Shown in pieces: positions 27,192-47,277 of a stretch of DNA of 64,000 nucleotides. The stretch is taken from IMG/VR virus record IMGVR_UViG_3300029288_000066, positions 128,001-192,000 of that record; one strand, 5' to 3'. Every line of letters begins with the position of its first letter. Position 1 is the first letter of the stretch. Both the position numbers and the translations under genes were made by a program. The stretch comes from a virus. Its lineage: Duplodnaviria > Caudoviricetes. Under the pieces are notes generated by a model. That model saw only the letters and a program-made list of their open reading frames with translations. It was not told where the DNA came from and searched no databases.

Positions 27192-27349
27192 AATTCGGGG
27201 AAAAGGAGCAAAAGTGTTTTTTCTATACTCTAACCAACTGAGCTACGTGCTCCATTTTTTTTATTATTTGGGAGCACGACTGGACTCGAACCAGCGACCT
27301 TTTGTTATCAAGACAAATGCGAAGTAACTTTTACAATTGCCACCGAATT
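27192..27349 (-). ncRNA. Scaffold RNA copy 3 (circularly permuted Ile-like tRNA)
   Basis: T-arm and CGTGCTCC come before GGAGCACG and D-arm GCTCAGTTGGTTAGAGT inside conserved stem. Confidence 0.75.
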
Positions 27350-27374
27350 ATTTCAAAATTTTAAAGAACGATAT

Positions 27375-27412
27375 AAAACAAAAAACCCAGACTCTTTTGG
27401 AATCTGGGTGGC
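27375..27412 (-). terminator. Attenuator terminator of Thr/His/Asn tRNA operon
   Basis: ACCCAGATTC..GAGTCTGGGTTTTTTGTTTT; competes with GTCTGGGTG in leader. Confidence 0.85.
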
Positions 27413-27431
27413 TTTTTGTTTTCTTATATTT

Positions 27432-27521
27432 TTATTTTAAGATAGACATATTACACCCAGACACACATGTATTATTATGTTTGTTGGTCTTCGTGTTAAT
27501 ATGTATACTTAAAGCTAACAT
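27432..27521 (-). CDS. Thr/His/Asn attenuation leader peptide MLALSIHINTKTNKHNNTCVSGCNMSILK
   Basis: 29 aa ORF; HINTKTNKHNNT matches downstream tRNAs. Confidence 0.87.
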   Translation of the reverse strand: MLALSIHINTKTNKHNNTCVSGCNMSILK

Positions 27522-27558
27522 TTCAATATTTCCTTTTTATTTAAATAGTATGATTTTT

Positions 27559-27650
27559 TTACTTTCTACGCAAAGGTACAAAAAAAGTTACATTAAATGC
27601 AAGTTTTTTTTCGTTTATTTTTAAAATAATTTTTAAGTTGTTGATTGTTA
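27559..27650 (-). promoter_or_regulatory. Composite tRNA-operon promoter (repeat)
   Basis: ~85 bp near-identical to 49835-49920. Confidence 0.75.
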
Positions 27651-27659
27651 ATAATTTAA

Positions 27660-28004
27660 TTAATCAATTATTTTTCTCTTTGGAACATTATGTTCATCCA
27701 GCAAACTCATAACTTCATCTCTCGCAGAAAGTGGAGCATAACATCGAATATCTTCGTGCATATTTTTTTTACCTTCATTTGTCGCAGTTGATAAATCAAT
27801 TCGTTCATCATCATCTAACTCCTTTGTACAACCGTTATTCCACTGTTCATTAAATTCATCATCAGTTAAAAGTTTATTCTTAAAATCTTCAATTGATTCT
27901 CCCGTATAATGACCAATTGGGCTAATGGCTGACATTGTGCCATCATCATTCCAAATTTCTTTGGTCTCGGTATAATTTCTATATGCTTCCTGTAATCTAC
28001 TCAT
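27660..28004 (-). CDS. Hypothetical protein
   Basis: 114 aa ORF. Confidence 0.55.
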   Translation of the reverse strand: MSRLQEAYRNYTETKEIWNDDGTMSAISPIGHYTGESIEDFKNKLLTDDEFNEQWNNGCTKELDDDERIDLSTATNEGKKNMHEDIRCYAPLSARDEVMSLLDEHNVPKRKIID

Positions 28005-28046
28005 ACACCAAATATATAAAAAAGTTTCAATAAAGTCAAATTGGAT

Positions 28047-28735
28047 TTAAATTTTTTCCAAAATAATTCTCTCAACGATTTTTTTCATATAATTCCAATC
28101 ATCTTCTGATGTTTTATAATTTGGTGTTATGAAAGGGGCGTGTGAATCCCATTCTTCGCCCACTTTTCCTTCTGAAGATTTTATTATCTTTTGAGCTCCA
28201 CTTTTCTGTAAGTATGATGCAAGCCTTCCTTTTTTATTAATGGAAAGCTTTAATATAACTCCTTCACGCAAAACTTCTACATCAACTCTTTTCCCGTCGA
28301 ACATATTTTTGTGGTCTGTTGTGATTAAGTCAAAAACAACAAGGAGAGCTCCATCTTCATCAACACTTATGTTTTTAATATCAATTTTTTTTGGAATTTC
28401 CTCGGCACATAATTTTTCAATTACCCATTTTAATTCAACATCTGTTTCCTTGTCTGTCTTCTCTGGTATTGGAATAATATTAAAAGGGGTTGCCAACACT
28501 CTGTTTCCTGCCGTGAACAAAAGATATTTACCTCTATCTGGGAACCACTTTAAAACTTTATGTCTCCATAGGCTGGCCTAATATTATAAACAGTTCTTCC
28601 TATAAGGTCTTCAAATTTCTCTATTCCCAGGTGTTTTAATTGCTGTTGGTATTCTTCCTTGGAAAAATCTTTAAAGCCCGTCACATCAACTCCTGAGAGC
28701 TCCTGAAGTCTTTTTTTATATGATTCTGTCAGCAT
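28047..28735 (-). pseudogene. Frameshifted late gene (LTESYKKRLQELSG N-terminus)
   Basis: Two ORFs joined by a -1 shift near 28565. Confidence 0.55.
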
Positions 28736-28743
28736 ATCTTTAT

Positions 28744-29577
28744 TTATATAACTTCAATATATTTAGGAGGAATAATCCCATTATATTTAACTGAATGTAC
28801 AGTTTTTAAACTAAACCAATAATCTTTTGGATTAATACTAACAACATTGTATTTCTTGTCATATCTTTTTGGATTATTTTTGGCATATAAATTATATAAC
28901 TTTTTTATATTTTTCCATACCATTTCTCTATTGCCCATGCCGTCAACAACAACTGGTTCATCTAATTCATTAAAATCGACCATTAATAAATTGTTGTTTG
29001 GGATTTTAATTTTTAATACAATTGGACTACCACCTTTAAATTTATTTAACTCTTCATCTTCTGATGCTTCAATTGAATAATACTCTGCTTTTTCATATAA
29101 ATCTGTTAAATATGGGTTTTTCAATCCTTTGGTCATAATATTATCTAACACAGCATCCGTTGTACCATGATAAAAAATATTATTGTCGCCAATTATATTT
29201 GATTCCTCAAATATCTTTATTTTACTATATTTCTCCAGTTCGGGGTCATCTTTATAAAAGAATTGAAAATCTACAATTCGCCCATTCCACTTTGGTTTAA
29301 ACACGTCGCTGGTAAATTTTGAATGGTAATGCTCAGTTCTTTTTAAAGAAGAAATTTTATCTGATTTCGGAATTATGATTCCAATATCCAAATCAGAATC
29401 GTCCTTGGCCGTTCCCTTTGCTTCAGAGCCAATAATAAAAGCATTAAGGATTGGATAATCAACTCTCGATGTTAAATTGTTTCTTAGCATAGACACAATA
29501 TCCTTTTTGCTTGGATATTTGAGCATCCTGTCAATTTCCTCTCTAATCAATTTCCTTATGTATTTTTTATCTTCCAT
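28744..29577 (-). CDS. Minimal nucleotidyltransferase fused to ART-like domain
   Basis: GSEAKG...DSDLD; FYHGT...YLT; N-terminal IRKLIREEI. Confidence 0.7.
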   Translation of the reverse strand: MEDKKYIRKLIREEIDRMLKYPSKKDIVSMLRNNLTSRVDYPILNAFIIGSEAKGTAKDDSDLDIGIIIPKSDKISSLKRTEHYHSKFTSDVFKPKWNGRIVDFQFFYKDDPELEKYSKIKIFEESNIIGDNNIFYHGTTDAVLDNIMTKGLKNPYLTDLYEKAEYYSIEASEDEELNKFKGGSPIVLKIKIPNNNLLMVDFNELDEPVVVDGMGNREMVWKNIKKLYNLYAKNNPKRYDKKYNVVSINPKDYWFSLKTVHSVKYNGIIPPKYIEVI

Positions 29578-30371
29578 TATCTTAACTCATCAAATAAGTG
29601 AACTTGACTTTTCGGTACTTCTATAATAACATCATCATATCCCAGTTCTTTCATGGAAATCACTCTATGTCTTCCATCTGAAAATCCAAGTCTTCCATAA
29701 TTTATTGAAACGTATGGAGCTTGAAATTCTACATCACCCCAATCGGTTCTCTGATTTGTTTTTCGGTTTATGTACCTTTGGTCTTTTGAGTAATCCATCC
29801 AATATTGCTTTGCTCTTTCAACTCTTCCTGGATGGTCAGCAGTTTCTCTGGTGTCGAAAGCATAATCTGGTTCGTCTTTTTTGTGTCTGGCCAGTAGTTT
29901 ATTTATATTAACAACAATGAGCGTATCATCTTTAGAGTCCCTAAGTTTATATTTTGAGAGCATGCTCTCTGCAGGTGGATAGTCATTGTTCTCAATTTCA
30001 TCTAATCCTTCATATTCATCTGGTCCTTTAGAGACATAAATTTCTTTGGCTTTTTTTACTTCCCCCGAATAAAAATATTCTCCTGGATTATAAGCATCAT
30101 AAACATTTTCGGTTGGGACAAGCGCTTGAATTACATGGAATGGTTCCTCGTGATATACATGATTATTTTCAGCATGTTCTATTGCAAATTTTTTACTTAA
30201 AGTCACATAATCTTTATCTCTAAATTCAAAAACATCATTTGGGGCTGCTCTATATATTGTAACAAATGGAACGTTCATTTGATTACTCAGGCCTTTTCCG
30301 AGTATCCTTGGGGTTTCATCAACACCAGCCAACTCTTGTAATCTTCTTTTATATGATTCTGATAAGTTCAT
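29577..30371 (-). CDS. ART-like plus ParB/Srx-like domain protein
   Basis: IYRA...DYVTLS; DGRHR; N-terminal LSESYKRRLQELAG. Confidence 0.55.
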   Translation of the reverse strand: MNLSESYKRRLQELAGVDETPRILGKGLSNQMNVPFVTIYRAAPNDVFEFRDKDYVTLSKKFAIEHAENNHVYHEEPFHVIQALVPTENVYDAYNPGEYFYSGEVKKAKEIYVSKGPDEYEGLDEIENNDYPPAESMLSKYKLRDSKDDTLIVVNINKLLARHKKDEPDYAFDTRETADHPGRVERAKQYWMDYSKDQRYINRKTNQRTDWGDVEFQAPYVSINYGRLGFSDGRHRVISMKELGYDDVIIEVPKSQVHLFDELR

Positions 30372-30374
30372 TTT

Positions 30375-31067
30375 TTAATAAGCGTATTTTTTTACTCTAG
30401 AGTCTTGTGAAAAGCTGTATGCATCCGAAGTTTTTGAGTCAAATCCGAAATCAACCACAACAACTCTCGGAACGCCATCTCTCAAAACCTCTCCATAGGT
30501 TGATATTCTTGAGAAATCCCCAGGGAGTGGATATTGAAAATCTTCTGTAAATTGGTTAAGGTCATACGCAAATTCATTTTCGCTTAAATCTCTCCCAGGC
30601 ATTCCCCATCCTACTTTCCCTTGTATGTTTGCCATCCAGGCTGAAACTTCTTCTGGACTAGTACCTGTCAATTCTCTAAATCTTCGTGGAGTTATTTTCT
30701 TTGCAAGTTCCATTTCAATCCACATATCATCATTATCAACATCAAACACTCTTGCTACAACATCATAATTTTGTTTATATGCCCAGGATTCTGCATCATT
30801 TTGAGCACGTCCTCTTTCGTTCAGAGCAACCTTAAGAACCTTTTCGTCATCAATTCTAAAAACTGCTCTTCCGCTTCCCACACCAATTTTACCAAGCAAG
30901 TGTTGTGTTGCATATCTTTGTTTGCCAGCAAAAGACATTATGTTTTTAAATTCTTCAGGATTAAAGTTGGTTGGATAAGCCATTTCATCCATCATAAAGT
31001 CTTGTGCTTCACAAAAAATTTCGTCAAGACATTCTCTTATAACTTTTCTTATGACTTGCTTTTCCAT
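30375..31067 (-). CDS. Protein-kinase-like protein
   Basis: IGVGSGRAVF, VLK, QNDAE, VDFG. Confidence 0.65.
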   Translation of the reverse strand: MEKQVIRKVIRECLDEIFCEAQDFMMDEMAYPTNFNPEEFKNIMSFAGKQRYATQHLLGKIGVGSGRAVFRIDDEKVLKVALNERGRAQNDAESWAYKQNYDVVARVFDVDNDDMWIEMELAKKITPRRFRELTGTSPEEVSAWMANIQGKVGWGMPGRDLSENEFAYDLNQFTEDFQYPLPGDFSRISTYGEVLRDGVPRVVVVDFGFDSKTSDAYSFSQDSRVKKYAY

Positions 31068-31140
31068 TAAAAAAATCTTTTTATATAAATAGTTATAAAA
31101 TGGAAAAACCCCCAGCGTTTTTCGGAGGGGGTTTTTATAA

Positions 31141-31482
31141 AGTAATTTTATGGGAATTCTAGGTTGAGCGTCACCCCTTAGTCCCACCCAAATCTTTTCA
31201 GACATCACCTAGTGAAGGAATGGGTTTATAGGCCAAGTATTATTAAGGCATTTACTTTTCATCCCAGTTTTTTTAAGGTGTTTACTGTTAACCCATAGTT
31301 TTAAGTTTCATGTCAACTCAGAAATTTTAAGCTTTTAAGAAGCTGCTCTAAACCTTCTAACACCCACACTTAAGTTAAGGCTTTAACCGTTAGCGCCAGG
31401 ATGGCCGCAGAGCGTGCAGACCATTTTTTTTGCTGTTTATGAACATAGAAGTATCTCAAATCTTTACCACAAAAAAATTACT
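31141..31482 (-). ncRNA. Scaffold RNA copy 4 (large ~270 nt non-tRNA insert), own transcription unit
   Basis: GTGGTAAAGATTTGAGATACTTC...CTCAACCTAGAATTCCCA; boxA upstream, terminator 31104-31136. Confidence 0.65.
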
Positions 31483-31569
31483 TCAAAGAACTTTATGCTT
31501 GTATAAATATACAAAAATTTCAAATTTCTAATGCAAATATATTACAAACGAAACTCAAATGCAAGTTTT

Positions 31570-31959
31570 TTACTTAAAATATCTAAATCCCTGAAACCCT
31601 TTCATTGGAATTGGTTCAATTTTATGGAAAGGACCAGAGCGTTCAATAAACTTTCCTTTCCAGTTCTTTCCAGATGTCGTACAATCAAAATTCTTTTCTG
31701 ACATTCCCACAATTTCCATCCATCCTATTATAGCTCCATCATAAAGCAAGTAACATTTATTGCCAGGTTTCGTTTTTGGGAAACCGCTTACTTTAAAATT
31801 CATGACCTGCTTATAATCCTTTACAGCATCCAACTCTTTGTTATAATCTTTCCATTGGATTGACTTTGGGATAGTTATGATAATATCCAAACCTTTTTCT
31901 TCGTCTTCGTTTATTCCAGCCAATGCTTGAAGTCTGTTTTTATAATTCTTTGTTATCAT
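31570..31959 (-). CDS. PUA/ASCH-like hypothetical protein
   Basis: PGNKCY...IPMKGFQGFRY. Confidence 0.5.
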   Translation of the reverse strand: MITKNYKNRLQALAGINEDEEKGLDIIITIPKSIQWKDYNKELDAVKDYKQVMNFKVSGFPKTKPGNKCYLLYDGAIIGWMEIVGMSEKNFDCTTSGKNWKGKFIERSGPFHKIEPIPMKGFQGFRYFK

Positions 31960-32253
31960 TTATTATGTCGATTTTTCCCCCATAATATTCATATGGGCAT
32001 TTTTTATCAAAACAATAGTTGGCGAAACCCACTCTTATACCATTCATATTATAAACTATACCTCTCACAGCATGAATATCATCTATGTTGGTTATAATAC
32101 AATATGTTTTTTTATCATCTTTTTCCTGGATTTTCATTCCCACCTTAATGTCCTCGATGGAATAGCCCTTTACAAATTTTCTTGCCATTATGTTTTTTTG
32201 ACGTATACGCAAAAAGATAATAAAAGTTACATATTTATAAAAAAACAAAAAAC

Positions 32254-34254
32254 ATGAATTACTTCTTCAATTCTAACAATAGGATAACTAATGAATTTTC
32301 TTATACAGCATCAACTACCAATCCAATAGGAAATATTACAAAAACATCAGGAATTGGCGTTTGGAATCTAAACGGAGAAAAAATTGTATCCACCAACAAC
32401 ATAGCAACAGAAACTATGACTGGAGCTGGTCCAACTTATTTGATGAAACTATATACAGATTCTTTTGACAAAATAACAGAATTGTCTTTAGGAAGTCTTG
32501 TTGACAATTTAAATATTTCTCAATTTACTAAAATTACTTCTCTCAATACCAATTCTTCTGGTAGTTTAACAAGCATTACAAATCCAAATTCATCTGCTGT
32601 ATTTACATTATATTCCGTAAACAGTTGCGACTTAATTGGGGAATTAGACATAAGCTGCCTGAGTGGAATTGGCGGAACTCTTTTGGCTTATGACAATGGG
32701 AATCTAACAAGCATCAAAAATCCAAATTCTTCTCAAAACATTGACTCTTATCAAGTGTATAACTGCAAATTAACTGGGGATTTAAACTTAAGTGGTTTAA
32801 CTGGTCTTGGTGGTGGATTTACATGTTATTCAAATGCAAATTTAACAAGCATCACCAATCCAATCTCATCTCGTAATTTTACTAATTATTATGCGTACGA
32901 ATGTGATTTAAGAAATTTAAATCTATCTAATTTAAGTGGGCTTGGAGGAGCATTTCGAGCTGATAAAAATTCCAATTTAACAGCAGTAACATTTGCAAAC
33001 TCTTCTGTTGAGTTTAGTCTTTTTTGGATGAACAATTGTGATTTAAAATCCTTAAATCTTTCTGGACTGAGTGCTCTTGGTGGAAATTTACAGTTGGGGT
33101 CAAACTCAGGATTAACTGCAGTAACACTTCCAACATCTTCTACAGTTTTTTCTAATTTTGAAGCGTCTGTTTGTGATTTGAGAAATTTGGATTGTTCTAG
33201 TTTGAGTAAACTAGGAGGAGTTTTTAGAACATATAACAACACTAACTTAACAGCGATAACTTTTACAAGCTCAACTGAAGTATTTACAAACGTCAGTGTT
33301 TTTTCTTGCAATTTAAAAAAATTAGATGTTTCTGGATTTAATAATCTTGGTGGATATTTTGCTGCAAATAGCAATGCGGCTATGACAGCACTAACACTTC
33401 CAATTTCATCACAAGTATTTACCTATTTTGATGTTTCGAACAACTCTGCTCTAATAGATTTAGATTGTTCTGGATTAAGCAACCTGGGGGGCTCCTTCCA
33501 GGCATATTCTACTATACTTATGACTGGAGTAACACTTCCGTCTTCTTCACAAGTTTTTACCGTTTTTGATATTCACAGCAGCAATCTATTTGATTTAGAT
33601 TGCTCTGGATTGAGTAATTTAGGAGGAGATTTTAAAGCCCACTCAATTAAAGATTTAAGTAGTGTTACAAATCCAAATTCATCTCAAGCATTTACTACCT
33701 ATGATGTACACAACTGCAATTTAATTGGAAATTTAAATTTAAGTGGTTTAACTAGTCTTGGTGGAGCTTTTTATTCTTATTCTAATCCACGTTTAACTTC
33801 AATTACAAATCCAAACTCTTCTCGAACATTTACCAACTATCGAACTTATAGCTGCGGCCTAGCTGGTGATTTAGATGTAAGTGGACTAAGTGGATTGGGA
33901 GGAAGTTTTTATGCTTATTTAAACACGGGGCTAACAAGTGTAATACTTCCAGTCTCCACACAAACTTTTAGTAGTATTAAAATATATGATTGTGCAAGTC
34001 TTGGATATGTAAATTTATACCCACTTTCTGGTTCTTCAAGCAACTATATTGATATTGAATTGAATGACAATTCATGGTCAGCAGCAATAGTGAACCAAGT
34101 TTTATATGATATAGACCAAATTGGGTGGACTTTAGGAACTCTATTTATAGCTGGTACAAATTCTGCTCCAGATACTACTTCTGGTGGGTATAATGGAACT
34201 GCTGCAAAATCAAATTTAGTAACAGTGAAAGGGTGGAGTGTCTTTTCAAATTAA
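32254..34254 (+). CDS. Leucine-rich-repeat-like structural protein
   Basis: ~46 aa repeats CDLxxLxxSGLSxLGGxF...NxxLTxxTxPxSS. Confidence 0.75.
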   Translation: MNYFFNSNNRITNEFSYTASTTNPIGNITKTSGIGVWNLNGEKIVSTNNIATETMTGAGPTYLMKLYTDSFDKITELSLGSLVDNLNISQFTKITSLNTNSSGSLTSITNPNSSAVFTLYSVNSCDLIGELDISCLSGIGGTLLAYDNGNLTSIKNPNSSQNIDSYQVYNCKLTGDLNLSGLTGLGGGFTCYSNANLTSITNPISSRNFTNYYAYECDLRNLNLSNLSGLGGAFRADKNSNLTAVTFANSSVEFSLFWMNNCDLKSLNLSGLSALGGNLQLGSNSGLTAVTLPTSSTVFSNFEASVCDLRNLDCSSLSKLGGVFRTYNNTNLTAITFTSSTEVFTNVSVFSCNLKKLDVSGFNNLGGYFAANSNAAMTALTLPISSQVFTYFDVSNNSALIDLDCSGLSNLGGSFQAYSTILMTGVTLPSSSQVFTVFDIHSSNLFDLDCSGLSNLGGDFKAHSIKDLSSVTNPNSSQAFTTYDVHNCNLIGNLNLSGLTSLGGAFYSYSNPRLTSITNPNSSRTFTNYRTYSCGLAGDLDVSGLSGLGGSFYAYLNTGLTSVILPVSTQTFSSIKIYDCASLGYVNLYPLSGSSSNYIDIELNDNSWSAAIVNQVLYDIDQIGWTLGTLFIAGTNSAPDTTSGGYNGTAAKSNLVTVKGWSVFSN

Positions 34255-34265
34255 AATAATATACT

Positions 34266-34556
34266 ATGAATTTTTCTACAACAACGTACAAAATTAATGA
34301 TTTTACTGTTAATAAAGTTACCATAGAACATGGGTGGGTAATGGTTTATGACAACACAGAAAAAATAATCATAACGAGCCCAGTTGAGGTTTCTAATTCT
34401 ATACTTGAAACTACCCATGAATTTTGTGTGAAAGACACTGAGGATGAACTACTCGATATTATCGAGCAGTTAAAACTTTCTAAAATAGAAAATAGTAAAG
34501 AAACTATTATAGACAAAGCAATAAAAGAAACTTCTGAATATATTTCAAATAAATAA
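34266..34556 (+). CDS. Hypothetical protein
   Basis: 96 aa ORF in operon with LRR gene. Confidence 0.55.
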   Translation: MNFSTTTYKINDFTVNKVTIEHGWVMVYDNTEKIIITSPVEVSNSILETTHEFCVKDTEDELLDIIEQLKLSKIENSKETIIDKAIKETSEYISNK

Positions 34557-34607
34557 AAAAAGGCATAGCATTTATACTAGGCCTTTTTTATAAATAAATA
34601 TTAATAT

Positions 34608-35555: not shown

Positions 35556-35620
35556 AATAATAATTTTTAAATTGTTTTTACTATATTATACGAGAAAAAA
35601 TAAAAAAGGTTACATTTTTA

Positions 35621-35821
35621 TTAAACTTTTTTAAATTTATATTTTGGCTTGATAACAGCATCGAAGTAAGCTCCTGGTGATTTAGATTGTGTTATACCAG
35701 CATACACTTCAGGAGGAACAGAAAAATATTTATATTTACCACCTTTAACAAAATCAATTGTTAAAACGTCTGTTGAATCGTTGTATTCCACAGATTTTAT
35801 TCTTGAAGAATTTAATTGCAT
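35621..35821 (-). CDS. KTSC domain protein
   Basis: SSRIKSVEY...F..G..Y.Y..VP...S.G.YF. Confidence 0.85.
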   Translation of the reverse strand: MQLNSSRIKSVEYNDSTDVLTIDFVKGGKYKYFSVPPEVYAGITQSKSPGAYFDAVIKPKYKFKKV

Positions 35822-38743: not shown

Positions 38744-38779
38744 ACACATTTTTATACTATTTATAGAAAATATTTTATC

Positions 38780-39787: not shown

Positions 39788-40324
39788 AAAAGCCCCACAT
39801 TCTGGGGCTTTTCTTTTTTACGGAAGGTATTTAAAACCTTCTCCATAGAACTTCATCAGTTTTTCATTCCCTGATGCCATTTCGGCATATCCATCCGCTT
39901 TTTTATACGCTTCTGTCTGATTGATTGCAGAGACGTAGAATTGTAGCATATCGCCGCTCGTAAGCTCGATTTCTACCAACCAATATTTCATTGGCTGTTT
40001 CTGGTAATCTTTTTGATTTTCTAACATATTCAAATGTCATTAAGTAACATTGAATATTTTGTTAGCCAGGGCTGAATGACATATGTTTTTGGTTTATTAT
40101 TTAAATATTAATAGTTAATTTATTCAATTTGTTCCAGTCTACTCTTTTCCTTGCAAGAATTTCTTCCTGTTGCCTTAATATATCTTCTGTTCTTTTCTTC
40201 TGTTCGGGAGAATCAAAATCTATTTTATTAACAATAAATTTAGACAATTCTTTTTTCATACTGTATATTTAATAAATATCAAAAAAAAATCCTGACTTTC
40301 TTTGAGAAATCAGGAAGTTTTAAA

Positions 40325-41082
40325 ACCTTGAGTTTACAGGCTTTAGTGAGCCAACTTTCGGAGGATTATTGTTTCCCCGCCTTATCCACATGCCTTGCGA
40401 CACGTACCGACTCAATCTCGACTGCTATGGGCAATCACTCCTATCGTCACAGACTACTCTACTGCTACTTTAACCACAACAAGGGCGCCCCCCTGCAATA
40501 GCCTTTCACAATAATCCGTTGAACTTTGACATCCAACGTCCCCAATTCATCTTGCGATGTCAGGGTCTGAGAGACCTGTCGTCCATAACGCCAGCGGAAC
40601 TTTTTCTTTGCTTCTATTGTTTTTAGAGAATAGAGCGGTTTTTACCCCGCACCAAAGTATGTGTTTAATTAAGGATGTGCCGCTGGAACAGCTTCGCCAC
40701 TTTTGGCGACGAAATACTATACACCTTCTGCGCCCTTTTGCATCAGTACGCTTTCATCTCCGAATCCTTCCTCCATCGCTGGAAGCGAGAATCCCAAAAA
40801 CAAATGGAACACGCTCTATAGTCTGCTAAACGTTGAACATTATTCCTCGGTTTTTCCTGTTACCCCTTTCGGAGCTCAATCGCCTTAACACAATTTAGAC
40901 GATATTCCACTCAGCAGTTGCCCTTGCAGAACGTACTAACCTATTGTATGCTCGACTTCCTTGTGAAAGCGGCGAGTTATAAACCCCACCTTTAATCCTG
41001 GTCACCCAGTTTATTTTGCCTGCCCCTTTCGGAACAGACCTTGACAACCCGTAGGCCACCAGTGACAGCACACTGCCACAAA
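40325..41082 (-). ncRNA. Large structured ncRNA, GOLLD-like
   Basis: ~760 nt GC-elevated segment with no credible ORF, between TATCTTTG promoter/boxA and terminator 40290-40316. Confidence 0.55.
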
Positions 41083-41199
41083 TATTTTCAATATTTTAAA
41101 GAACTTTAAATCTTGGTTACTCACCTATAATGAGCAAAGATATATAATCTAAAAACAAAAAGCAACTTTTTTCTTGTTTTTTTTTATTTTTTTTTAAAA

Positions 41200-41282
41200 A
41201 GACGTAAACAGGCCGCTCAACCACCTACCCTTGCTTTCTTCCGAACCTGGGGGAGTTCAGTAGGAGCTGGCCTATTACGCTT
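41200..41282 (-). ncRNA. ffs: SRP (4.5S) RNA
   Basis: Helix-8 signature CAGGTTCGGAAGAAAGCA in long hairpin. Confidence 0.8.
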
Positions 41283-41567
41283 TTTAAGTTACATAGATAC
41301 AGCTGAACCATTTTTCAGAGTCAATTTAAATGCGAAGGGCTTCCACTCTTGCGAGTCATACACAGCCTCACTTTCCTCACATACTGCATCAGGCGACTGA
41401 ACCTGACCTTTTTTAATAACTTAAATTTTCAATATCTTAAAGAACTTTTGCCAATGTAAATATACAAAAAAAATTCCATTTACATAGGCTCATACGAAAA
41501 AAAATAAAAAAAGTTACGAGAATCAAATAATTTTTTCTATATTTATAAAAAAATTAGGTTCTCTATA

Positions 41568-42638
41568 ATGAAAGACAAGTTAAGGCTTTTTATCCAAGAA
41601 GACATTTCAAAAATATTTGAAGACGATTATATAAGCTCATTCGAACCTGAAGATATCCCAGAAATGCAACCAGGCGGAGTAGCACATCAAGCATTTTTAA
41701 AAGATTTGTGGAAAGAACCATCAATGGGGAAATATAAAGACCCATCAGGAGAGGAAGTTGACAATATAATAAAAGGACTACAACAAGGAAATCTTGATTT
41801 GCCGAATGATTATGATTTGACCCAACAAGCAGAAAAGGATTTACAAAGAAAATTAAATTCACCTGAGAAAAGTGGCGCAGATACCATAAAAGACATGGAG
41901 AAACTTGCAGGAGCTGGCTCATATAACGAATCAATCAGAAAAATAATAAGAGAACAAATAAACACACTGTTTGAAATAAATGCTGGCATTTCAAGCGATA
42001 CAAGACAAATTGCCATGGCAAGAAAATTAATGGGAGATGACTCTATTATCGTTCTGAATAAATTAAAATTTGGTGAAGAACTAAGCATGGCCGAAGAATC
42101 CGAAGCAAGAGATAAGTATTTTACAGATTATATAATTACAAAAACAAGACTTGGAAAAAGCTTAAAAAGGATAAATCCAATAAACTTATATGATTTAGAA
42201 GCCCTTTTCGAAAGAGGTGGTTATGTGTTTAACTCATATCTGTCAGCATTGGTTGAAAGATATTCAAACGTGGAACAAATAAGTAACCTGGAAAGAAATT
42301 CTTTGCTAAACACTGGAAAATTATACACTCCAGAAAATGCAAATGATAATATAGCAAAAAAATATATTATAAAAATGTTTGTTAACTTAGATGTTCCACA
42401 AGCTGATGACAACAAATGGACTCAGGATGACAGCATGGAAGCTTCAAAAGCATATCAAATTGCATTATCAGATGGTGAATTTAGAAACATACTTGAACAG
42501 GTGCTCTATAGAAAAGGAATGCAAAACTCTAGACTATATAAAAAACTTAAAAGCATATCTGATGAAATCCCTGCAACACCAAGTGCATTGCCACACCACA
42601 TGAAACGATTTGCAGAACAACAGGAAAATATGTTCTAA
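41568..42638 (+). CDS. Late protein with IRKIIREQI motif
   Basis: TATTTATA upstream. Confidence 0.6.
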   Translation: MKDKLRLFIQEDISKIFEDDYISSFEPEDIPEMQPGGVAHQAFLKDLWKEPSMGKYKDPSGEEVDNIIKGLQQGNLDLPNDYDLTQQAEKDLQRKLNSPEKSGADTIKDMEKLAGAGSYNESIRKIIREQINTLFEINAGISSDTRQIAMARKLMGDDSIIVLNKLKFGEELSMAEESEARDKYFTDYIITKTRLGKSLKRINPINLYDLEALFERGGYVFNSYLSALVERYSNVEQISNLERNSLLNTGKLYTPENANDNIAKKYIIKMFVNLDVPQADDNKWTQDDSMEASKAYQIALSDGEFRNILEQVLYRKGMQNSRLYKKLKSISDEIPATPSALPHHMKRFAEQQENMF

Positions 42639-42669
42639 CAAAAAAGCCCCCAGAATTTGGGGGCTTTTT

Positions 42670-43019
42670 TTAATGACTCATATAAGTCATATTCGAAAAT
42701 TGAGCTCTTCGAATCTCTTCATTCTTATTCAAAATTAAAGAATTAAACTCTTCTATTTCCAACTCAACAATTTCATTAACCTCAAGCTCAAACATTCTTA
42801 TTTTATCATCATACAATCTGTTTTATCAATTGGCTCCACAAGACACAAACTTACACCAAGCTCGCCCTTTTCCAATTTCTCTTTTATTTGTTCAACAAAC
42901 TTTAATCCCGTTTCTTTATAAAGGATTTTTGCTTTTTCATAATCTTTAATGTGCTGCTTCTGATTCTTTTTTAAAGCATCAATCACATCAATTGTTTTTA
43001 CATTAATCTTTCTTGACAT
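42670..43019 (-). pseudogene. Frameshifted hypothetical gene
   Basis: Reading continues in -1 frame after GATTGTATG. Confidence 0.55.
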
Positions 43020-43037
43020 AACTTTGTTTTTTTTGGT

Positions 43038-43724
43038 TTATAGTAATACGTATTGACTTTTTTCTGAATTCATTAATTCCATGGTTTGCTTTAATTCCCC
43101 ATTTTCCATGAATACTTTTACACATTTTTCTGTTTTTGCTTCCTCAAAAGTCCCTTCAGGAAAATAGCCACATATCATAATGGCTCTTTTTTCTTTCATT
43201 AAATATTCTCCTGGATTATTCAATACATTCTTGAATCTTTCAATTAAGAGTTCTTTAACTTCACTTTGCAATTCTTCTGGATTACTAGAATTAAACTCTG
43301 GAGTAAGAAAAAGAGTTATTCCTCTTCTTGGAACAAAATCAGAACCGTAAAAAATTGGCGTTATACATGCTTCATTCTTTACAGGCTCAGTGAGGTTTTC
43401 TTTATCATATATTATCGGAGTTAAGAAAATTGAATATAGATAAACTTTGGGGCCTTTGAATTTTAAAGTATCACCCACTTTAACTGTGACGGTTTTATGC
43501 GTTTCAACTTCACCACCTTTTTCCAATTGGATAAATGGCTCGTCCAATATAACTAGATGCTTTACATTTTCAAATTCATCACATCTTAAAAGCGCTTCTT
43601 GTACTATGGGAGCTTTTAAAATATCTGGAGTTAACATATATTCTTCTGTGAATCCAAGCCCTTTTTCAGCTTTTGTACCATGTGATATTTCAAATAAACT
43701 TTGTAAATATTCTGACATTTTCAT
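43038..43724 (-). CDS. Protein with gp23 C-terminus-like segment
   Basis: LTPIIYD...FVPRRGI. Confidence 0.5.
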   Translation of the reverse strand: MKMSEYLQSLFEISHGTKAEKGLGFTEEYMLTPDILKAPIVQEALLRCDEFENVKHLVILDEPFIQLEKGGEVETHKTVTVKVGDTLKFKGPKVYLYSIFLTPIIYDKENLTEPVKNEACITPIFYGSDFVPRRGITLFLTPEFNSSNPEELQSEVKELLIERFKNVLNNPGEYLMKEKRAIMICGYFPEGTFEEAKTEKCVKVFMENGELKQTMELMNSEKSQYVLL

Positions 43725-43854
43725 AATTACTGTTTTTTAATTTATGAAAATGTAGTAAAATAAAATAGTAAAATCAAGTTTTATTTTGGCAAATGTTTTA
43801 AGTTCGATTTGTATTATCGCTTTTTTTTGCTATATTTATAGAAAAGATGAAATT

Positions 43855-44709
43855 ATGAATAAATGTTTAAATTGCGGACAGGAAACAAATAACAATAAGT
43901 TTTGTTCTATTAGTTGCCAACATAGATTCCAAAAAGCATCACAAATTGATAAAAGACTTGGTATGTTTTTAGACTTTACAATTAAATGCAATAAGTGTGG
44001 AAAGGAGTTTGTAGTTAATGAACGTGAAAATTTATTTCCACAAAAAGAAAAATATTATTGTAGTAGAAGTTGTGCAAATAAAAGAATTCATAGTGAAGAA
44101 ACTAAGAAAAAGATAAGCAAAAGAATTAAAGAGCTTATAAAAGAAAATCCAGAAAAATATAGCAATGGTGGTTATAATAGCGGTTCTGAATTACAAAAAA
44201 AAAGAGAAAAAATTGTAAAAATAATTTGTAAAAAATGTTTAAAAGAATTTTGTGTGCCTTATGGTAGAAGAAATAGGCAATTTTGTTGTAAAACGTGTGC
44301 ATCTAATTGGATGAAAGGTTCTTCTAAATCTCAATTAACTGGACTGTTATCAGTACAAGCACAAAAGGATATGAGAAGAAGTAAAAATGAGATATATTTT
44401 TCTGAATTATGTAAAAATCACTTCAATAAGGTTTTAACCAACGAACCAATATTTAATGGTTGGGATGCAGATGTTATTATTGAAGACATTAAAATGGCAG
44501 TTTTGTGGAATGGTAAGTGGCATTATGAAAAGATAACTAAAAAACACTCTGTCAAACAAGTTCAAAATAGAGATAAAATAAGAATTAAAGAAATTAAAGA
44601 ATATGGATATAATTACTACATCATTAAAGATATGGGAAGACAAAATAAAAAATTTGTTGAGGATAAATTTAACACATTTATAAAAATGTTGGGAACAAAA
44701 AATTCTTAG
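43855..44709 (+). CDS. Zinc-finger PD-(D/E)xK/Vsr-like endonuclease
   Basis: FCSxSC fingers; WDAD...WNGKWH...D. Confidence 0.7.
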   Translation: MNKCLNCGQETNNNKFCSISCQHRFQKASQIDKRLGMFLDFTIKCNKCGKEFVVNERENLFPQKEKYYCSRSCANKRIHSEETKKKISKRIKELIKENPEKYSNGGYNSGSELQKKREKIVKIICKKCLKEFCVPYGRRNRQFCCKTCASNWMKGSSKSQLTGLLSVQAQKDMRRSKNEIYFSELCKNHFNKVLTNEPIFNGWDADVIIEDIKMAVLWNGKWHYEKITKKHSVKQVQNRDKIRIKEIKEYGYNYYIIKDMGRQNKKFVEDKFNTFIKMLGTKNS

Positions 44710-44783
44710 TGGCGATGACGAGATTTGAACTCGTAACCTTCTCTTTATGAGAGAGATGTGCATACCAATTACACCGCATCGCT
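44710..44783 (-). tRNA. tRNA-Met(CAT)
   Basis: Loop CTCATAA. Confidence 0.85.
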
Positions 44784-44795
44784 GTTTAAAAAAAT

Positions 44796-45003
44796 AGTGG
44801 TGCGTGAAAGCCTCCTACTTTCATAATCTCGCTGACTTACACAGCTAGAAGGTCTCGGAATCGCACAACGAAAGTAGTTGTAGTCGAACAAATTTCACTT
44901 CTTCTGAAATGATATTCATTCTTTCGATTGTGTCAACAATCCAACTGCTCCGTTGATTCACTACTGAACCTTTAATTACAGCGGTCTTAAGCACCGCACC
45001 ACT
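44796..45003 (-). ncRNA. Unidentified ~205 nt structured RNA
   Basis: Terminal stem AGTGGTGCG/CGCACCACT inside tRNA operon. Confidence 0.5.
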
Positions 45004-45087
45004 TGCCTACAAACAACTCATGCATTAGCTGTTCATGTGCCAGGGAAACACTCGCCCTTTTGCAAATAGAGTCTGTGATTCCTTTTG

Positions 45088-45159
45088 AGCGAAAGATGGG
45101 GTTCGAACCCACGGCCTGAACCTTGGCAAGGTCCCACTCTACCACTGAGCTACTTTCGC
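45088..45159 (-). tRNA. tRNA-Gly(GCC)
   Basis: Loop TTGCCAA. Confidence 0.9.
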
Positions 45160-45162
45160 ATT

Positions 45163-45327
45163 AAAATTAGGGAATTCTCGAACTAAGCTTTTTCTTTTCC
45201 GCCCCATTTAGCCACTCTGGTACTCCTCGATTTTAATTTTCTTTGTCGAGGAGGATGGATTCGAACCACCGTAGGCTTACGCCAGCAGATTCCTTTCGAA
45301 GTATCTTAATTTGTTACCACTAATTTT
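45163..45327 (-). ncRNA. Scaffold RNA copy 5 (circularly permuted Tyr-like tRNA)
   Basis: Variable and T-arm plus CTCCTCG precede CGAGGAG and D-arm; opened at anticodon loop. Confidence 0.75.
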
Positions 45328-45330
45328 TTG

Positions 45331-45404
45331 TGGAGATGACTGGATTCCAACCAGCGACTTCTTGATTGCAGGTCAAGCGCTCTAAGCAGCTGAGCTACAT
45401 CCCC
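45331..45404 (-). tRNA. tRNA-Ala(TGC)
   Basis: Loop CCTGCAA, G3:U70. Confidence 0.85.
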
Positions 45405-45487
45405 CATTGTTTTCCTATTAACTCTTCCTGCACTAAGGTGCGCAGGTTAACAGAACTTCGGAAAAGCTTCTATACTTGTTCAGTTAG

Positions 45488-45564
45488 TCGGGCATGCAAG
45501 ATTCGAACTTGCGAGTTCTCCACATCCCAAATGTGGCGGGGTGGCCTGACTCCCCAAATGCCCG
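45488..45564 (-). tRNA. tRNA-Pro(TGG)
   Basis: Loop TTTGGGA. Confidence 0.88.
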
Positions 45565-45633
45565 AATTTACAACCTTTGTTTGCAGAATAGTTTTTGAAT
45601 TTTAATTTTTTAAACTATTTATAATAAAATACG

Positions 45634-46335
45634 ATGAAACCTTTATTTACAGAAGAAGAGTTCAACAATGCAAAAAGCGAAGATAAACTTCCTTGCGAAT
45701 GCTATTATTGTAAAAAACAATTTTTTCCCTATAAAAAAGCAATTAAACATGAATTAAAAAGTAATAGTGGGTGGATAAAGTTTTGTTCAATTGCATGTCA
45801 TAATAGATATAAGTTCGGAGAATCTGTTTTAACAAAATGCTCTAATTGTAATAAACATATATATAAAGACCCTTCACAAATAAAAAAATCTAAAACTGGA
45901 AATATCTTTTGCTCAAAGTCTTGCGCTGCCACATATAATAACAAGCATAAAATTCATGGCACTCGTAGGTCAAAGCTTGAAATTTATTTAGAAAAACAAT
46001 TAACGCTTTTATACCCAAGTTTAGAGATTCTTTATAACAACAAAGAAACAATAAACTCTGAACTTGATATTTATATTCCTTCTTTTAAACTTGCTTTTGA
46101 ACTTAATGGAATCTTTCATTACGAACCAATATTTGGTGATGAAAAACTAGGTAAAATCCAAAACAATGATGAGCGCAAATTTCAAGCTTGTTTAGAAAAC
46201 CAAATTGAACTCGTTTTAATTGATGTTTCTTCTTTAGGATATTTTAAGCCTAAAAATGCTGATAAATACCTTAATATTATTATCAACATTATAAATAAAA
46301 AATTAGGGAATTCTTTGCAGAATCTTTTTTTATAG
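45634..46335 (+). CDS. Zinc-finger PD-(D/E)xK/Vsr-like endonuclease, antisense within tRNA operon
   Basis: ELDIYIP...FELNGIFH...D. Confidence 0.7.
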   Translation: MKPLFTEEEFNNAKSEDKLPCECYYCKKQFFPYKKAIKHELKSNSGWIKFCSIACHNRYKFGESVLTKCSNCNKHIYKDPSQIKKSKTGNIFCSKSCAATYNNKHKIHGTRRSKLEIYLEKQLTLLYPSLEILYNNKETINSELDIYIPSFKLAFELNGIFHYEPIFGDEKLGKIQNNDERKFQACLENQIELVLIDVSSLGYFKPKNADKYLNIIINIINKKLGNSLQNLFL

Positions 46336-46457
46336 CGTTCTAGCCATTAAACTATCCCCACAATTTTACTTTATTCTCTTTTGTGTAGGGAGCGAGATTC
46401 GAACTCACATTTCTGTCTTGGAAGGACGATGAAATTCTACGATTTGCCACTAATTTT
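46299..46457 (-). ncRNA. Scaffold RNA copy 6 (circularly permuted Gly-like tRNA)
   Basis: GTGGCAAATCGTAGAATTTCATCG...ATTCTGCAAAGAATTCCC; CTTCCAA loop and T-arm, then D-arm. Confidence 0.7.
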
Positions 46458-46458
46458 G

Positions 46459-46534
46459 TCGGAGTAACTGGATTCGAACCAGCGGAAATCTTGCACCCCA
46501 TGCAAGCCCATATAGCCATCTGTGGAACACCCCG
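46459..46534 (-). tRNA. tRNA-Pro(GGG)
   Basis: Loop ATGGGGT. Confidence 0.85.
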
Positions 46535-46668
46535 ATAAAATGACCAACGTCAAGATTTTTGAGTTGCTAATGCTTTTGCTACATCACCGTTAATGCTGCT
46601 TTGTCGACTCATCGGCAATAAGGCCGCTATTCACATTAATTCTTCCTCTCATATTAATCAGTCATTTG

Positions 46669-46743
46669 TCTAGGTGGCAAGATTCGAACTTGCGGACCGA
46701 TGTTTCCAAAACACCGTAGTATAGCCATCTGCAATACACCTAG
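46669..46743 (-). tRNA. tRNA-Pro(TGG)
   Basis: Loop TTTGGAA. Confidence 0.82.
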
Positions 46744-46760
46744 TTTTTTATTTTTCACTG

Positions 46761-46846
46761 TTGCGGGTGAGGGACTCGAACCCCCGCTTTCCTTTTGGGA
46801 AAGTCCAGCTTATGAGACTGGCGAGATGCCGCTTCTCTAACCCGCA
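46761..46846 (-). tRNA. tRNA-Met(CAT), long variable arm, fMet-like
   Basis: Loop CTCATAA; TTTCCCAAAAGGAAA variable hairpin. Confidence 0.8.
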
Positions 46847-46852
46847 TTTCAG

Positions 46853-46924
46853 TGGGAATAGCAGGATTCGAACCTACAATTCACAGATTTACAGTCTGCT
46901 AAGCAACCGCTGCTCAATACTCCC
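46853..46924 (-). tRNA. tRNA-Tyr(GTA), short variable arm
   Basis: Loop CTGTAAA. Confidence 0.85.
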
Positions 46925-47040
46925 AATTTCTCCAGCTCAAGGGTCAGTCTATCCCTTTTCTTTTTAACGCTATATTAAGGAGACTTCTATGTGTTCAACA
47001 ACGCTCTCATATGCAGCTAGAGGAAGATTTTCAAAATTTG

Positions 47041-47122
47041 TCGGAAGGGTAGGAGTTGAACCTACATAGCCAGAGGCGACTGTTTTACAGACAGCTGATT
47101 TAGCCGATTTACCATCCTGCCG
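47041..47122 (-). tRNA. tRNA-Tyr(GTA)
   Basis: Loop CTGTAAA, long variable arm. Confidence 0.85.
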
Positions 47123-47126
47123 AATT

Positions 47127-47277
47127 AAATCAGGGAAAGGGCGGAAGAGTTTTTTTTAAATTCCCCCTTGTTAAATTTGTTTTTCTTAATTGGCGGGGGA
47201 AGTTGGATTTGAACCAACATTGTTTGTTTTTCACACAAATGTTTACCGAAGTATCTCTTTCTATTGCCACTGATTTG
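47127..47277 (-). ncRNA. Scaffold RNA copy 7 (permuted Phe-like tRNA with internal CCA)
   Basis: GTGGCAATAGAAAGAGATACTTCG...CTCTTCCGCCCTTTCCC; TTCCCCC-GCCA precedes GGGGGAA. Confidence 0.7.

What the first reader, a model, noticed from the sequence alone, without database searches (positions are those of the whole stretch)
27192..47277. Circularly permuted tRNA-like genes
In copies at 27192, 45163, 46299 and 47127 the T-arm and 3' acceptor strand come before an A-rich 13-23 nt linker and the 5' acceptor strand (plus D-arm in three). Example: ...CCATC-CTCCTCG-ACA / linker / CGAGGAG-TA-CCAGAGTGGCTAAATGG. The junction resembles the 3' half of one tandem tRNA joined to the 5' half of the next, so RNase P/Z-type cleavage of the linker could free a chargeable acceptor end on an RNA with no normal anticodon loop (inference).
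Basis: partly seen in the sequence, partly recalled or inferred. Interest (0 to 1): 0.75.

Follow-up and report, generated by a model that had tools for sequence, protein, structure and literature searches.

The report
Phage Y-RNA-like permuted tRNA mimics
The "back-to-front tRNA" genes are real, but they belong to a known class of small RNAs (Y RNAs of the YrlA type) that imitate tRNA and partner with the Ro60 protein; here at least eleven copies are scattered through a giant phage's tRNA operons.

Summary
On the minus strand, four elements (A 27349-27192, B 45326-45164, C 46456-46300, D 47276-47127) run T arm, 3' acceptor strand, A-rich linker, 5' acceptor strand, then a D arm in A-C.

They are not stand-alone tRNA genes. 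Each sits inside one conserved "handle": a terminal helix with a bulged U (AG-U-GGCAA / CC-CU), a covarying second helix and a UACUUCG motif. The 229-kb phage has at least 11 handle-bearing RNAs, 8 of them in this window. Three lie directly upstream of its Ro60/TROVE gene. Handle-type elements sharing the UACUUCG motif lie upstream of Ro60 in 9 of 9 related phage loci.

Rfam's YrlA model matches the T-acceptor-D core below its threshold. A 372-kb relative has orthologues with compensatory changes in the stems.

Best reading: phage Y RNAs of the YrlA kind, described in the literature as resembling circularly permuted tRNAs.

Three features are new: dispersal in tRNA operons, exact 7-bp acceptor stems, and linkers that carry the same N73-C-A-A trailer as the phage's real tRNAs. 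These make RNase P and CCA processing plausible, as shown for M. smegmatis YrlA. Binding and processing are untested.

Other readers of this scan noted the same family on this genome, and similar families on other phages.

The parts
27192..27349 (-). Copy A. Order: handle; anticodon-like hairpin UUUGU-CUUGAUA-ACAAA; AGGUC; T arm; acceptor 3' strand CGUGCUC-C-CAA; 18-nt linker; acceptor 5' strand GAGCACG; UA; D arm; A-run; handle. tRNA-Asn starts 3 nt downstream.
   Evidence: Rfam YrlA 30.8 bits, E 8.7e-5, at 27227-27299
45164..45326 (-). Copy B. Class-II-like permuted module. The anticodon stem forms in trans (UCUGC in the 5' part pairs with GCGGA after the D arm) and opens into the handle. 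Variable arm GGC-GUAA-GCC. Acceptor CUCCUCG/CGAGGAG with a 16-nt linker. It lies between tRNA-Ala and tRNA-Gly.
   Evidence: the orthologue B' has GCAGA/UCUCG-type full pairing (GCAGA with UCUGC)
46300..46456 (-). Copy C. Permuted module with hairpin GUC-CUUCCAA-GAC, acceptor UCCCUAC/GUGGGGA and a 22-nt linker. Its Levitt pair is A15:U48; the orthologue C' has G15:C48. It follows tRNA-Pro.
47127..47276 (-). Copy D. Permuted module without a D arm. Acceptor UUCCCCC-G-CCA / GGGGGAA with a 26-nt linker. It lies between tRNA-Ala and tRNA-Tyr. The orthologue D' also lacks a D arm and also encodes CCA.
47908..47980 (-). Copy E. 'Empty' handle (H1, H2, AUACUUCG, A-run) with no tRNA-like cargo, comparable to YrlB.
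   Evidence: orthologue E' with an A-U to G-C change in H2
25852..25983 (-). Copy I. Same handle enclosing a complete tRNA-like body in normal order.
   Evidence: Rfam tRNA 48.3 bits at 25884-25954; orthologue I'
11597..11737 (-). Copy J. Same handle enclosing D, anticodon-like, variable and T arms in normal order, with no acceptor stem.
   Evidence: Rfam tRNA 30.5 bits over model positions 7-64 at 11637-11708
31146..31476 (-). Copy K. Same handle ends (UUUUUUG-U-GGUAA ... GAUACUUC / UUCC-CAUAAAA) around about 280 nt of unknown cargo.
   Evidence: orthologue K' in G001; no Rfam match and no excess fold energy
45223..45270 (-).

Best explanation
These are phage-encoded Y RNA-like non-coding RNAs of the YrlA kind. 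Each has a conserved handle: terminal helix H1 with a bulged U and a GG/CC step, GGCAA, a covarying helix H2, UACUUCG and an A-run. I infer that this handle is the binding site for the phage's own Ro60 (TROVE + vWA) protein. Each also has a variable cargo domain; in A-D it is a tRNA look-alike whose acceptor stem is closed by a linker, so it reads as a circularly permuted tRNA. They are transcribed inside the tRNA operons. I infer that processing of the neighbouring tRNAs, 0-6 nt away for most copies, sets them free. The acceptor stems are exactly 7 bp, and the linkers carry the same 3'-trailer and 5'-leader signature as the phage's real tRNAs. I therefore expect RNase P and the 3'-end/CCA machinery to open the linker, giving a nicked two-piece RNA with a free CCA end held together by the acceptor, H2 and H1 helices, as shown for M. 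smegmatis YrlA. The particle probably acts in tRNA/RNA surveillance or repair during infection, together with the phage RtcB ligase and host tRNA-binding enzymes. Shown here: sequence, structure conservation, gene association. Inferred: Ro60 binding, processing, function.
For: (1) The shared handle occurs in at least 11 places in the genome, all on the minus strand. (2) Three copies sit directly 5' of the Ro60 ORF on the same strand. That ORF scores TROVE 75.7 bits plus a weak VWA match. Its closest solved relative is Thermus phage phiLo Ro60 (9KOP/9L5Y, E 8e-22), which binds phage Y-like RNAs (PMC12135203). (3) Elements sharing the UACUUCG motif lie upstream of Ro60 in 9 of 9 related phage loci. 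One of these is a 299-kb phage found through the RNA motif alone. TACTTCG occurs 14 times in 4.9 kb upstream of Ro60 against 6 times in 183.5 kb elsewhere. (4) Rfam YrlA aligns the T-acceptor-D core of copy A (30.8 bits, E 8.7e-5) and of Ro60-adjacent elements in L126 that carry the same GUUACUUCG motif (42.3 and 40.5 bits). (5) Orthologues in a 372-kb phage keep every stem through compensatory double changes: T 5, acceptor 5, H2 2, D 1, hairpin 1. All 10 permuted copies have 7/7 acceptor pairs. The Levitt pair covaries, A15:U48 in C against G15:C48 in C'. (6) The linker starts N73-C-A-A in 7 of 10 copies, CCA in 2 and CUA in 1. The phage's real tRNAs end N73-C followed by AAA in 31 of 53. (7) RtcB is present (199.9 bits). 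[quoted passage not shown]
Against: No copy reaches Rfam's YrlA gathering score (69 bits), and only copy A was reported among the window copies searched at permissive threshold (A-E, K). The published Ro-site motif GNCGAAN0-1G is absent; GUGGCAA stands in its place. The four flagged copies lie 38-60 kb from Ro60, whereas published YrlA genes are nearly all within 4 kb. There are no transcript, binding or cleavage data. No CCA-adding enzyme was found in the 82%-complete phage genome, so a host enzyme would be needed. The handle could bind a protein other than Ro60.
Confidence: 0.8

Rival explanations
1. True circularly permuted tRNA genes. The handle would be excised, the ends at position 26/27 (or in the anticodon loop) ligated, for example by the phage RtcB, and the linker removed by RNase P/Z to give ordinary decoding tRNAs, as in Cyanidioschyzon merolae.
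For: All cloverleaf parts are present. In-silico re-permutation makes ARAGORN call tRNAs: A Ser-UGA, C Gly-UCC, A' His-AUG, N1' Asn-GUU, N2' Met-CAU. The hairpin loops have 7 nt with U at position 2. RtcB is encoded. The linker looks like a tRNA spacer.
Against: There is no bulge-helix-bulge at the junction: 9-10 unpaired nt on each side. No splicing endonuclease was found (PF01974). The anticodon-like loops differ between orthologues (A CUUGAUA, A' CUAUGAU; D GUGAAAA, D' CUGUAAA). D and D' have no D arm. The same handle occurs empty (E, G, H), around a closed acceptor (F) and next to Ro60, which this model does not explain.
Confidence: 0.04
2. The handle is a processing or stability scaffold, or the binding site of another phage protein. 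It would be unrelated to Ro60, and the position beside the Ro60 gene would be incidental.
For: Most copies in this phage are far from Ro60. The canonical Ro-site sequence is not present. Another report of this scan describes tRNA-mimic RNAs paired with a non-Ro60 protein (e1-2703945, not checked here).
Against: 9 of 9 related Ro60 loci carry 1-4 handle-type elements directly upstream on the same strand, across Ro60 identities from 79% down to 42%. The motif-first hit G002 also encodes TROVE with four such elements in front of it. The terminal helix with one bulged base on the conserved 5' strand is the Ro-site design of Y RNAs (PMC4201824, PMC12135203).
Confidence: 0.12
3. Decaying remnants of rearranged tandem tRNA genes with no function.
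For: The junction looks like a tRNA-tRNA spacer. One genuine stray tRNA 3' fragment exists elsewhere in the genome.
Against: Orthologues in a phage whose Ro60 is 79% identical keep all stems through compensatory changes and keep the handle. 10 of 10 copies have perfect 7-bp acceptors.
Confidence: 0.01
4. Miniature two-piece (permuted) tmRNA-like genes.
For: The gene order is the same as in permuted ssrA. Rfam beta_tmRNA gives a weak local hit on B (19 bits).
Against: ARAGORN finds no tmRNA. 19 bits is far below the 84-bit gathering score. The RNAs are 150-165 nt, with no room for a tag frame or pseudoknots.
Confidence: 0.01

Closest known systems
YrlA (Y RNA-like A; Rfam RF02553) of Salmonella, M. 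smegmatis and mycobacteriophages (Chen et al. 2014, PMC4201824; Wang et al. 2018, 10.1101/312249)
   Same: Order handle - (V hairpin) - T arm - acceptor-like stem - UA - D arm - handle. Conserved T and D loops and Levitt pair. A YUAY-type motif (UUAC/AUAC) before the V region. The genome encodes Ro60, with copies upstream of it on the same strand. The M. smegmatis member has a 7-bp acceptor that is opened by RNase P and given CCA.
   Different: The handle sequence is AG-U-GGCAA ... UACUUCG rather than GNCGAAN0-1G. All copies score below Rfam's threshold. Most copies lie inside tRNA operons 38-75 kb from Ro60. The linkers are long, unstructured and spacer-like rather than short loops. A, C and D keep a whole anticodon-like arm, so the break is at position 26/27. 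There are at least 11 paralogues with interchangeable cargo.
Yrn1/Yrn2 of Deinococcus radiodurans
   Same: A Ro60-bound Y RNA with tRNA-like arms in the other order (D-anticodon-T), as in copies I and J.
   Different: Here both orders use one handle in one genome. Copy I holds a complete cloverleaf.
Thermus phage phiLo Ro60 with Yrl1/Yrl2 (PMC12135203)
   Same: A phage Ro60 (closest solved relative, E 8e-22) with Y-like RNAs encoded just upstream.
   Different: The phiLo RNAs were identified by a CGAA motif, and the passages I read do not describe them as tRNA mimics or as lying in tRNA operons.
Circularly permuted tRNA genes of Cyanidioschyzon merolae and Thermofilum pendens (cited in 10.1101/312249)
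   Same: The 3' half lies upstream of the 5' half, the acceptor is closed by a linker, and the ends pair.
   Different: No bulge-helix-bulge, no splicing endonuclease, and no conserved anticodon. One member lacks a D arm.
Two-piece tmRNA from permuted ssrA genes
   Same: Permuted acceptor/T-arm module that could end as two base-paired pieces.
   Different: No tag frame or pseudoknots, and about half the size.

Membership tests
YrlA-type Y RNA | tRNA-like domain in the order T arm - acceptor-like stem - UA - D arm, with conserved T and D loops | tested here: met
   the Rfam YrlA alignment covers model positions 27-81 for copy A. A, B and C have UA plus a D arm with GG. T loops are UUCGAAU, UUCGAGU or UUCAAAU. 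The 15:48 pair is kept and covaries (C against C'). D lacks the D arm.
YrlA-type Y RNA | Score at or above Rfam's gathering threshold (69 bits) | tested here: not met
   No YrlA hit at gathering level in the window or in 9 related loci. Best scores are 30.8 bits (A) and 42.3/40.5 bits for Ro60-adjacent relatives.
YrlA-type Y RNA | 5' and 3' ends pair into a stem carrying the Ro60-site motif GNCGAAN0-1G | tested here: inconclusive
   A terminal helix with one bulged U on a conserved 5' strand is present in all copies and covaries (UUCGG/CCGAA, UUAG/CUAA, AUCAG/CUGAU). At that position the sequence is G-U-GGCAA, not GNCGAA.
YrlA-type Y RNA | Encoded with a Ro60/TROVE gene, typically within 4 kb on the same strand | tested here: inconclusive
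   The genome has Ro60. Three handle RNAs lie within 420 nt upstream on the same strand. The four flagged copies are on the same strand but about 38-60 kb away.
YrlA-type Y RNA | Bound by Ro60 in vivo or in vitro | not testable with these tools
   Needs co-immunoprecipitation or a gel-shift assay.
Circularly permuted tRNA gene (C. merolae type) | 3' half upstream of 5' half; re-joined sequence is a tRNA | tested here: met
   ARAGORN calls tRNAs after in-silico re-permutation of A, C, A', C', N1' and N2', and none in 10 native sequences.
Circularly permuted tRNA gene (C. merolae type) | Bulge-helix-bulge at the paired termini and a splicing endonuclease to cut it | tested here: not met
   The junction has 9-10 unpaired nt on each side and no 4-bp helix between 3-nt bulges. 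PF01974 is absent from the genome.
Circularly permuted tRNA gene (C. merolae type) | Anticodon conserved as a decoding element | tested here: not met
   The loops differ between orthologues while the stems are kept. B has no anticodon loop and D has no D arm.
Two-piece tmRNA | Tag reading frame and pseudoknots; detected by ARAGORN or Rfam | tested here: not met
   ARAGORN finds no tmRNA. beta_tmRNA scores 19 bits against an 84-bit threshold.

The most novel reading that the evidence does not exclude
The operon-embedded copies are opened by RNase P and the 3'-end/CCA machinery into two-piece RNAs with a free CCA end. These are then aminoacylated, or re-ligated by the phage RtcB. The phage would thus field a set of Ro60-tethered, chargeable tRNA surrogates that act in translation or as decoys or repair templates against host tRNA-cutting defences.
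Probability: 0.07. Interest if true: 0.85.

Novelty: new variant of a known kind. Interest (0 to 1): 0.5.

Why it matters
Y RNAs that mimic tRNA are known, but what their tRNA-like part does is not. In this phage family one Ro60-type handle carries many different cargoes: four to six openable permuted tRNAs, normal-order tRNA bodies, a closed mimic, empty versions and a 330-nt RNA. The family is wired into the tRNA operons and uses the same end-processing signals as real tRNAs. That gives a natural comparison set (closed copies beside Ro60, openable copies in the operons) for testing whether a free acceptor end matters. It also links Ro60, RtcB and large phage tRNA sets to one problem, probably tRNA damage during infection. 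Finally, these RNAs escape the current Rfam YrlA model, so phage Y RNAs are under-annotated.

Tried and rejected
(1) Rfam at gathering threshold gave no family for any copy. Only the permissive search showed YrlA, and only for copy A.

(2) The scan of viral contigs with GTGGCAA-N8-14-TACTTCG was swamped by chance hits. It returned 117 stretches, of which only L105 carries a full handle.

(3) A loose handle descriptor without the UACUUCG motif is not specific: 79 hits against about 50 in shuffles. I relied on the motif plus pairing instead.

(4) I planned a covariance model, but the MAFFT alignment of the ten permuted copies mis-registers the 5' acceptor, D arm and trailer of B, B', D and D' and shifts H1 by one column. 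I did not build it. I counted pairs per helix in scripts instead. Several 'broken' pairs are pairwise-alignment artefacts, since every acceptor has 7/7 pairs.

(5) The tmRNA reading and the splicing-type permuted-tRNA reading were rejected.

(6) No CCA-adding enzyme was found in the phage.

(7) The cargo of K has no Rfam match and no excess folding energy.

(8) Sim and Wolin 2018 (PMC6047535) is not held in the library.

(9) The sixth descriptor hit, at genome 84,143 (+), is a stray tRNA 3' fragment next to a ribosome-binding site, not a family member.
Full report
**What is in the sequence.** The window is positions 128,001-192,000 of a 228,886-bp uncultured phage record with about 32% G+C. 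ARAGORN finds 35 tRNAs in the window, all on the minus strand. Rfam adds a GOLLD RNA and an SRP RNA.

- a 5-bp T stem with a T loop of tRNA type (UUCGAAU, UUCGAGU or UUCAAAU);
- a 7-nt 3' acceptor strand and a discriminator;
- an A-rich linker of 16-26 nt (13-23 nt without the first three bases);
- a 7-nt 5' acceptor strand pairing 7/7;
- in A, B and C, U8-A9 and a D arm with the GG of a D loop. Copy D has no D arm.

A descriptor for this arrangement finds 6 sites in the genome against a mean of 0.6 in shuffles. Four of the six are these copies. The other two are a real tRNA-His with a chance match and a tRNA fragment beside a ribosome-binding site.

Every copy is enclosed by the same leader and trailer:
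- Leader: AAUYAG-U-GGCAA, then a helix strand H2, then (G)WUACUUCG (UUUCAUCG in copy C).
- Trailer: an A-run, then H2', then UUCC-CURAUU.
- Leader and trailer pair as helix H1 (6-8 bp), one bulged U, then GG/CC.
- H1 covaries between copies (UUCGG/CCGAA, UUAG/CUAA, AUCAG/CUGAU). H2 differs in every copy but always pairs.

The handle occurs at least 11 times in the genome, always on the minus strand. Eight are in the window:
- J 11737-11597
- I 25983-25852
- A 27349-27192
- K 31476-31146
- B 45326-45164
- C 46456-46300
- D 47276-47127
- E 47980-47908

The other three (F, G, H) lie outside it.

The cargo differs from copy to copy:
- A-D carry permuted tRNA-like bodies.
- I carries a complete tRNA-like body in normal order (Rfam tRNA, 48.3 bits).
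- J carries D, anticodon-like, variable and T arms without an acceptor.
- F carries a T arm plus an 8-bp acceptor-like stem closed by a GAAA loop.
- E, G and H carry nothing.
- K carries about 280 nt of unknown RNA.

**Link to Ro60.** The genome encodes a 531-aa TROVE protein (75.7 bits) with a weak vWA match. Its closest solved relative is the Ro60 of Thermus phage phiLo (E 8e-22). That protein was shown to bind two phage Y-like RNAs encoded upstream of its gene (PMC12135203). Copies F, G and H lie within about 420 nt upstream of the Ro60 start codon on the same strand.

The association holds in relatives:
- Ro60 relatives in viral contigs, at 79% down to 42% identity, all have 1-3 elements sharing the UACUUCG motif in the same position. 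The 5' part of the handle varies in the more distant ones.
- A 299-kb phage with terminal repeats, found only through the RNA motif in a tRNA array (L105), also encodes TROVE, with four such elements in tandem in front of it.
- TACTTCG occurs 14 times in 4.9 kb upstream of Ro60 and 6 times in 183.5 kb elsewhere.
- That makes 9 of 9 assessable loci.

I infer that the handle is the Ro60-binding module. Binding itself is untested.

**Link to YrlA.** Rfam's YrlA model aligns the T arm - closed acceptor - UA - D arm core of copy A (30.8 bits, E 8.7e-5). It also aligns two Ro60-adjacent elements of L126 that carry the same GGGUUACUUCG motif (42.3 and 40.5 bits). All of these are below the 69-bit gathering score.

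The published description of YrlA fits:
- A V stem-loop, then T, an acceptor-like stem and D, with a conserved YUAY before V (here UUAC/AUAC), and a Ro-site motif near the 5' end (PMC4201824).
- D. radiodurans Yrn1 has the other arm order, as in I and J.

The Ro-site sequence differs from the published one: G-U-GGCAA here, GNCGAAN0-1G there.

**Evidence that the structures are under selection.** A 372-kb relative (G001), whose Ro60 is 79% identical, has orthologues of A, B, C, D, E, F, I and K. It also has two extra permuted copies and one extra empty copy.
- All ten permuted copies have 7/7 acceptor pairs.
- Between orthologues I count double compensatory changes in the T stem (5), acceptor (5), H2 (2), D stem (1) and hairpin (1).
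- The acceptor of A (GAGCACG) and that of A' (GGGGAUG) are unrelated in sequence, yet both pair fully.
- The A linker is 18 nt and the A' linker is 72 nt.
- The Levitt pair covaries: A15:U48 in C and G15:C48 in C'.
- The 7-nt loops of the anticodon-like hairpins are not conserved (A CUUGAUA, A' CUAUGAU; D GUGAAAA, D' CUGUAAA). They are structural, not decoding.
- In B, the anticodon stem forms in trans (UCUGC with GCGGA; GCAGA in B') and opens into the handle. This is the standard YrlA layout.
- A, C and D are broken at position 26/27 and keep the whole hairpin. Re-joining them in silico makes ARAGORN call tRNAs.

**Processing.** Most copies lie 0-6 nt from flanking tRNAs (I is 32 nt from its upstream tRNA-His; C and E have no tRNA called just downstream). 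No minus-strand terminator-like site was found between 49,603 and 44,700 other than a weak consensus match lying inside tRNA-Ala (47,343-47,328). Co-transcription and release by tRNA processing are therefore likely, but inferred.

The linkers look like this phage's inter-tRNA spacers:
- After the discriminator they read C-A-A in 7 of 10 copies, C-C-A in D and D', and C-U-A in C'.
- 31 of the 53 real tRNAs end N73-C followed by AAA.
- The base before the 5' acceptor strand is U in 7 of the 10 copies, as in most real tRNA leaders of this phage.

This matches the precedent of M. smegmatis YrlA, the one studied member with a 7-bp acceptor. It is cut by RNase P and receives CA to complete CCA in vivo (PMC4201824). 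I therefore give about even odds that the operon-embedded copies are opened into two-piece RNAs with a CCA end.

The Ro60-adjacent mimics point the other way. F, F', the third G002 element and the L126 elements have acceptor-like stems closed by short loops (GAAA or UUCG tetraloops in most) and would stay closed. No CCA-adding enzyme was found in the 82%-complete phage genome.

**Function.** RtcB is encoded 2 kb upstream of the window (476 aa, 199.9 bits). Ro60, Y RNAs and RtcB form an RNA-repair module in Salmonella (PMC7790460, abstract only, and PMC4201824). Jumbo-phage Ro60 has been proposed as a repair platform with a tRNA-like partner (PMC7824862). My best guess is a Ro60 particle whose tRNA-like cargo recruits or distracts tRNA-binding enzymes during infection. 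This is inference only.

**Rivals.**
- True permuted tRNA genes are unlikely. There is no bulge-helix-bulge and no splicing endonuclease, the anticodon-like loops are not conserved, D has no D arm, and the same handle occurs empty and beside Ro60.
- Decaying remnants are excluded by the covariation.
- A tmRNA-like reading fails.
- A partner other than Ro60 cannot be excluded without binding data.

**Novelty.** The class is known, including in phages: mycobacteriophages, CcrColossus, phage G and phiLo (PMC4201824, PMC12135203). In the papers I could search I found no description of the following:
- the divergent handle;
- the number of paralogues with swappable cargo;
- their dispersal inside tRNA operons;
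- the real-tRNA end signals around exact 7-bp acceptors.

Other first readers of this scan noted the same family on this genome (e1-5674614, e1-5674575). Similar Ro60-handle RNA families were reported on other phages (for example e1-272486). I reached the reading independently before seeing those notes.

Noticed in passing
window 31146-31476 (-): Copy K: an RNA of about 330 nt with the same handle ends as the Y-like family, carrying about 280 nt of cargo. The cargo has no Rfam match and no excess folding energy. K is conserved in the 372-kb relative (L130).
   Followed up: partly
window 25852-25983 (-): Copy I holds a complete normal-order tRNA-like body whose anticodon stem pairs fully only with an 8-nt loop (CUUUUAAU). 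Its orthologue I' has a 7-nt loop, CUUUAGU, which reads as anticodon UUA.
   Followed up: partly
window 40325-40729 (-) and 41196-41283 (-): A GOLLD RNA (185.9 bits) and a bacterial-type small SRP RNA (47.2 bits) are encoded by the phage between the tRNA operons.
   Followed up: no
window 45634-46335 (+): A 233-aa ORF on the opposite strand sits inside the tRNA operon between copies B and C. Its last 36 nt or so are antisense to the trailer of copy C. Pfam gives only a weak zinc-finger (zf-FCS) match. It may be an inserted mobile gene.
   Followed up: partly
whole genome (G000), e.g. window 45087-45159: The phage's real tRNA genes do not encode CCA. 31 of 53 end N73-C followed by AAA. No CCA-adding enzyme (PF01743) was found in the 82%-complete genome.
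   Followed up: partly
G000:C1:196604-196678 (-), outside the window: ARAGORN calls a tRNA with anticodon CUA (printed as tRNA-Pyl). That would be an amber-suppressor-type tRNA.
   Followed up: no
G000:C1:84143-84170 (+), outside the window: An isolated tRNA 3' fragment (T arm plus acceptor strand) lies just before the ribosome-binding site of an ORF. It has no handle and could be an attachment-site remnant.
   Followed up: partly
window 46355-46408 (-); L131 1363-1531 (-): Copy C, and B' in the relative, carry G3:U70 with A73, the alanine identity pair. Their orthologues (C', B) do not, so it may be only a wobble intermediate.
   Followed up: no
window 27375-27410 (-) and 11766-11907 (-): Copies A and J are the first genes after terminator-like hairpins. 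Other notes of this scan read those hairpins as leader-peptide attenuators of the tRNA operons.
   Followed up: no
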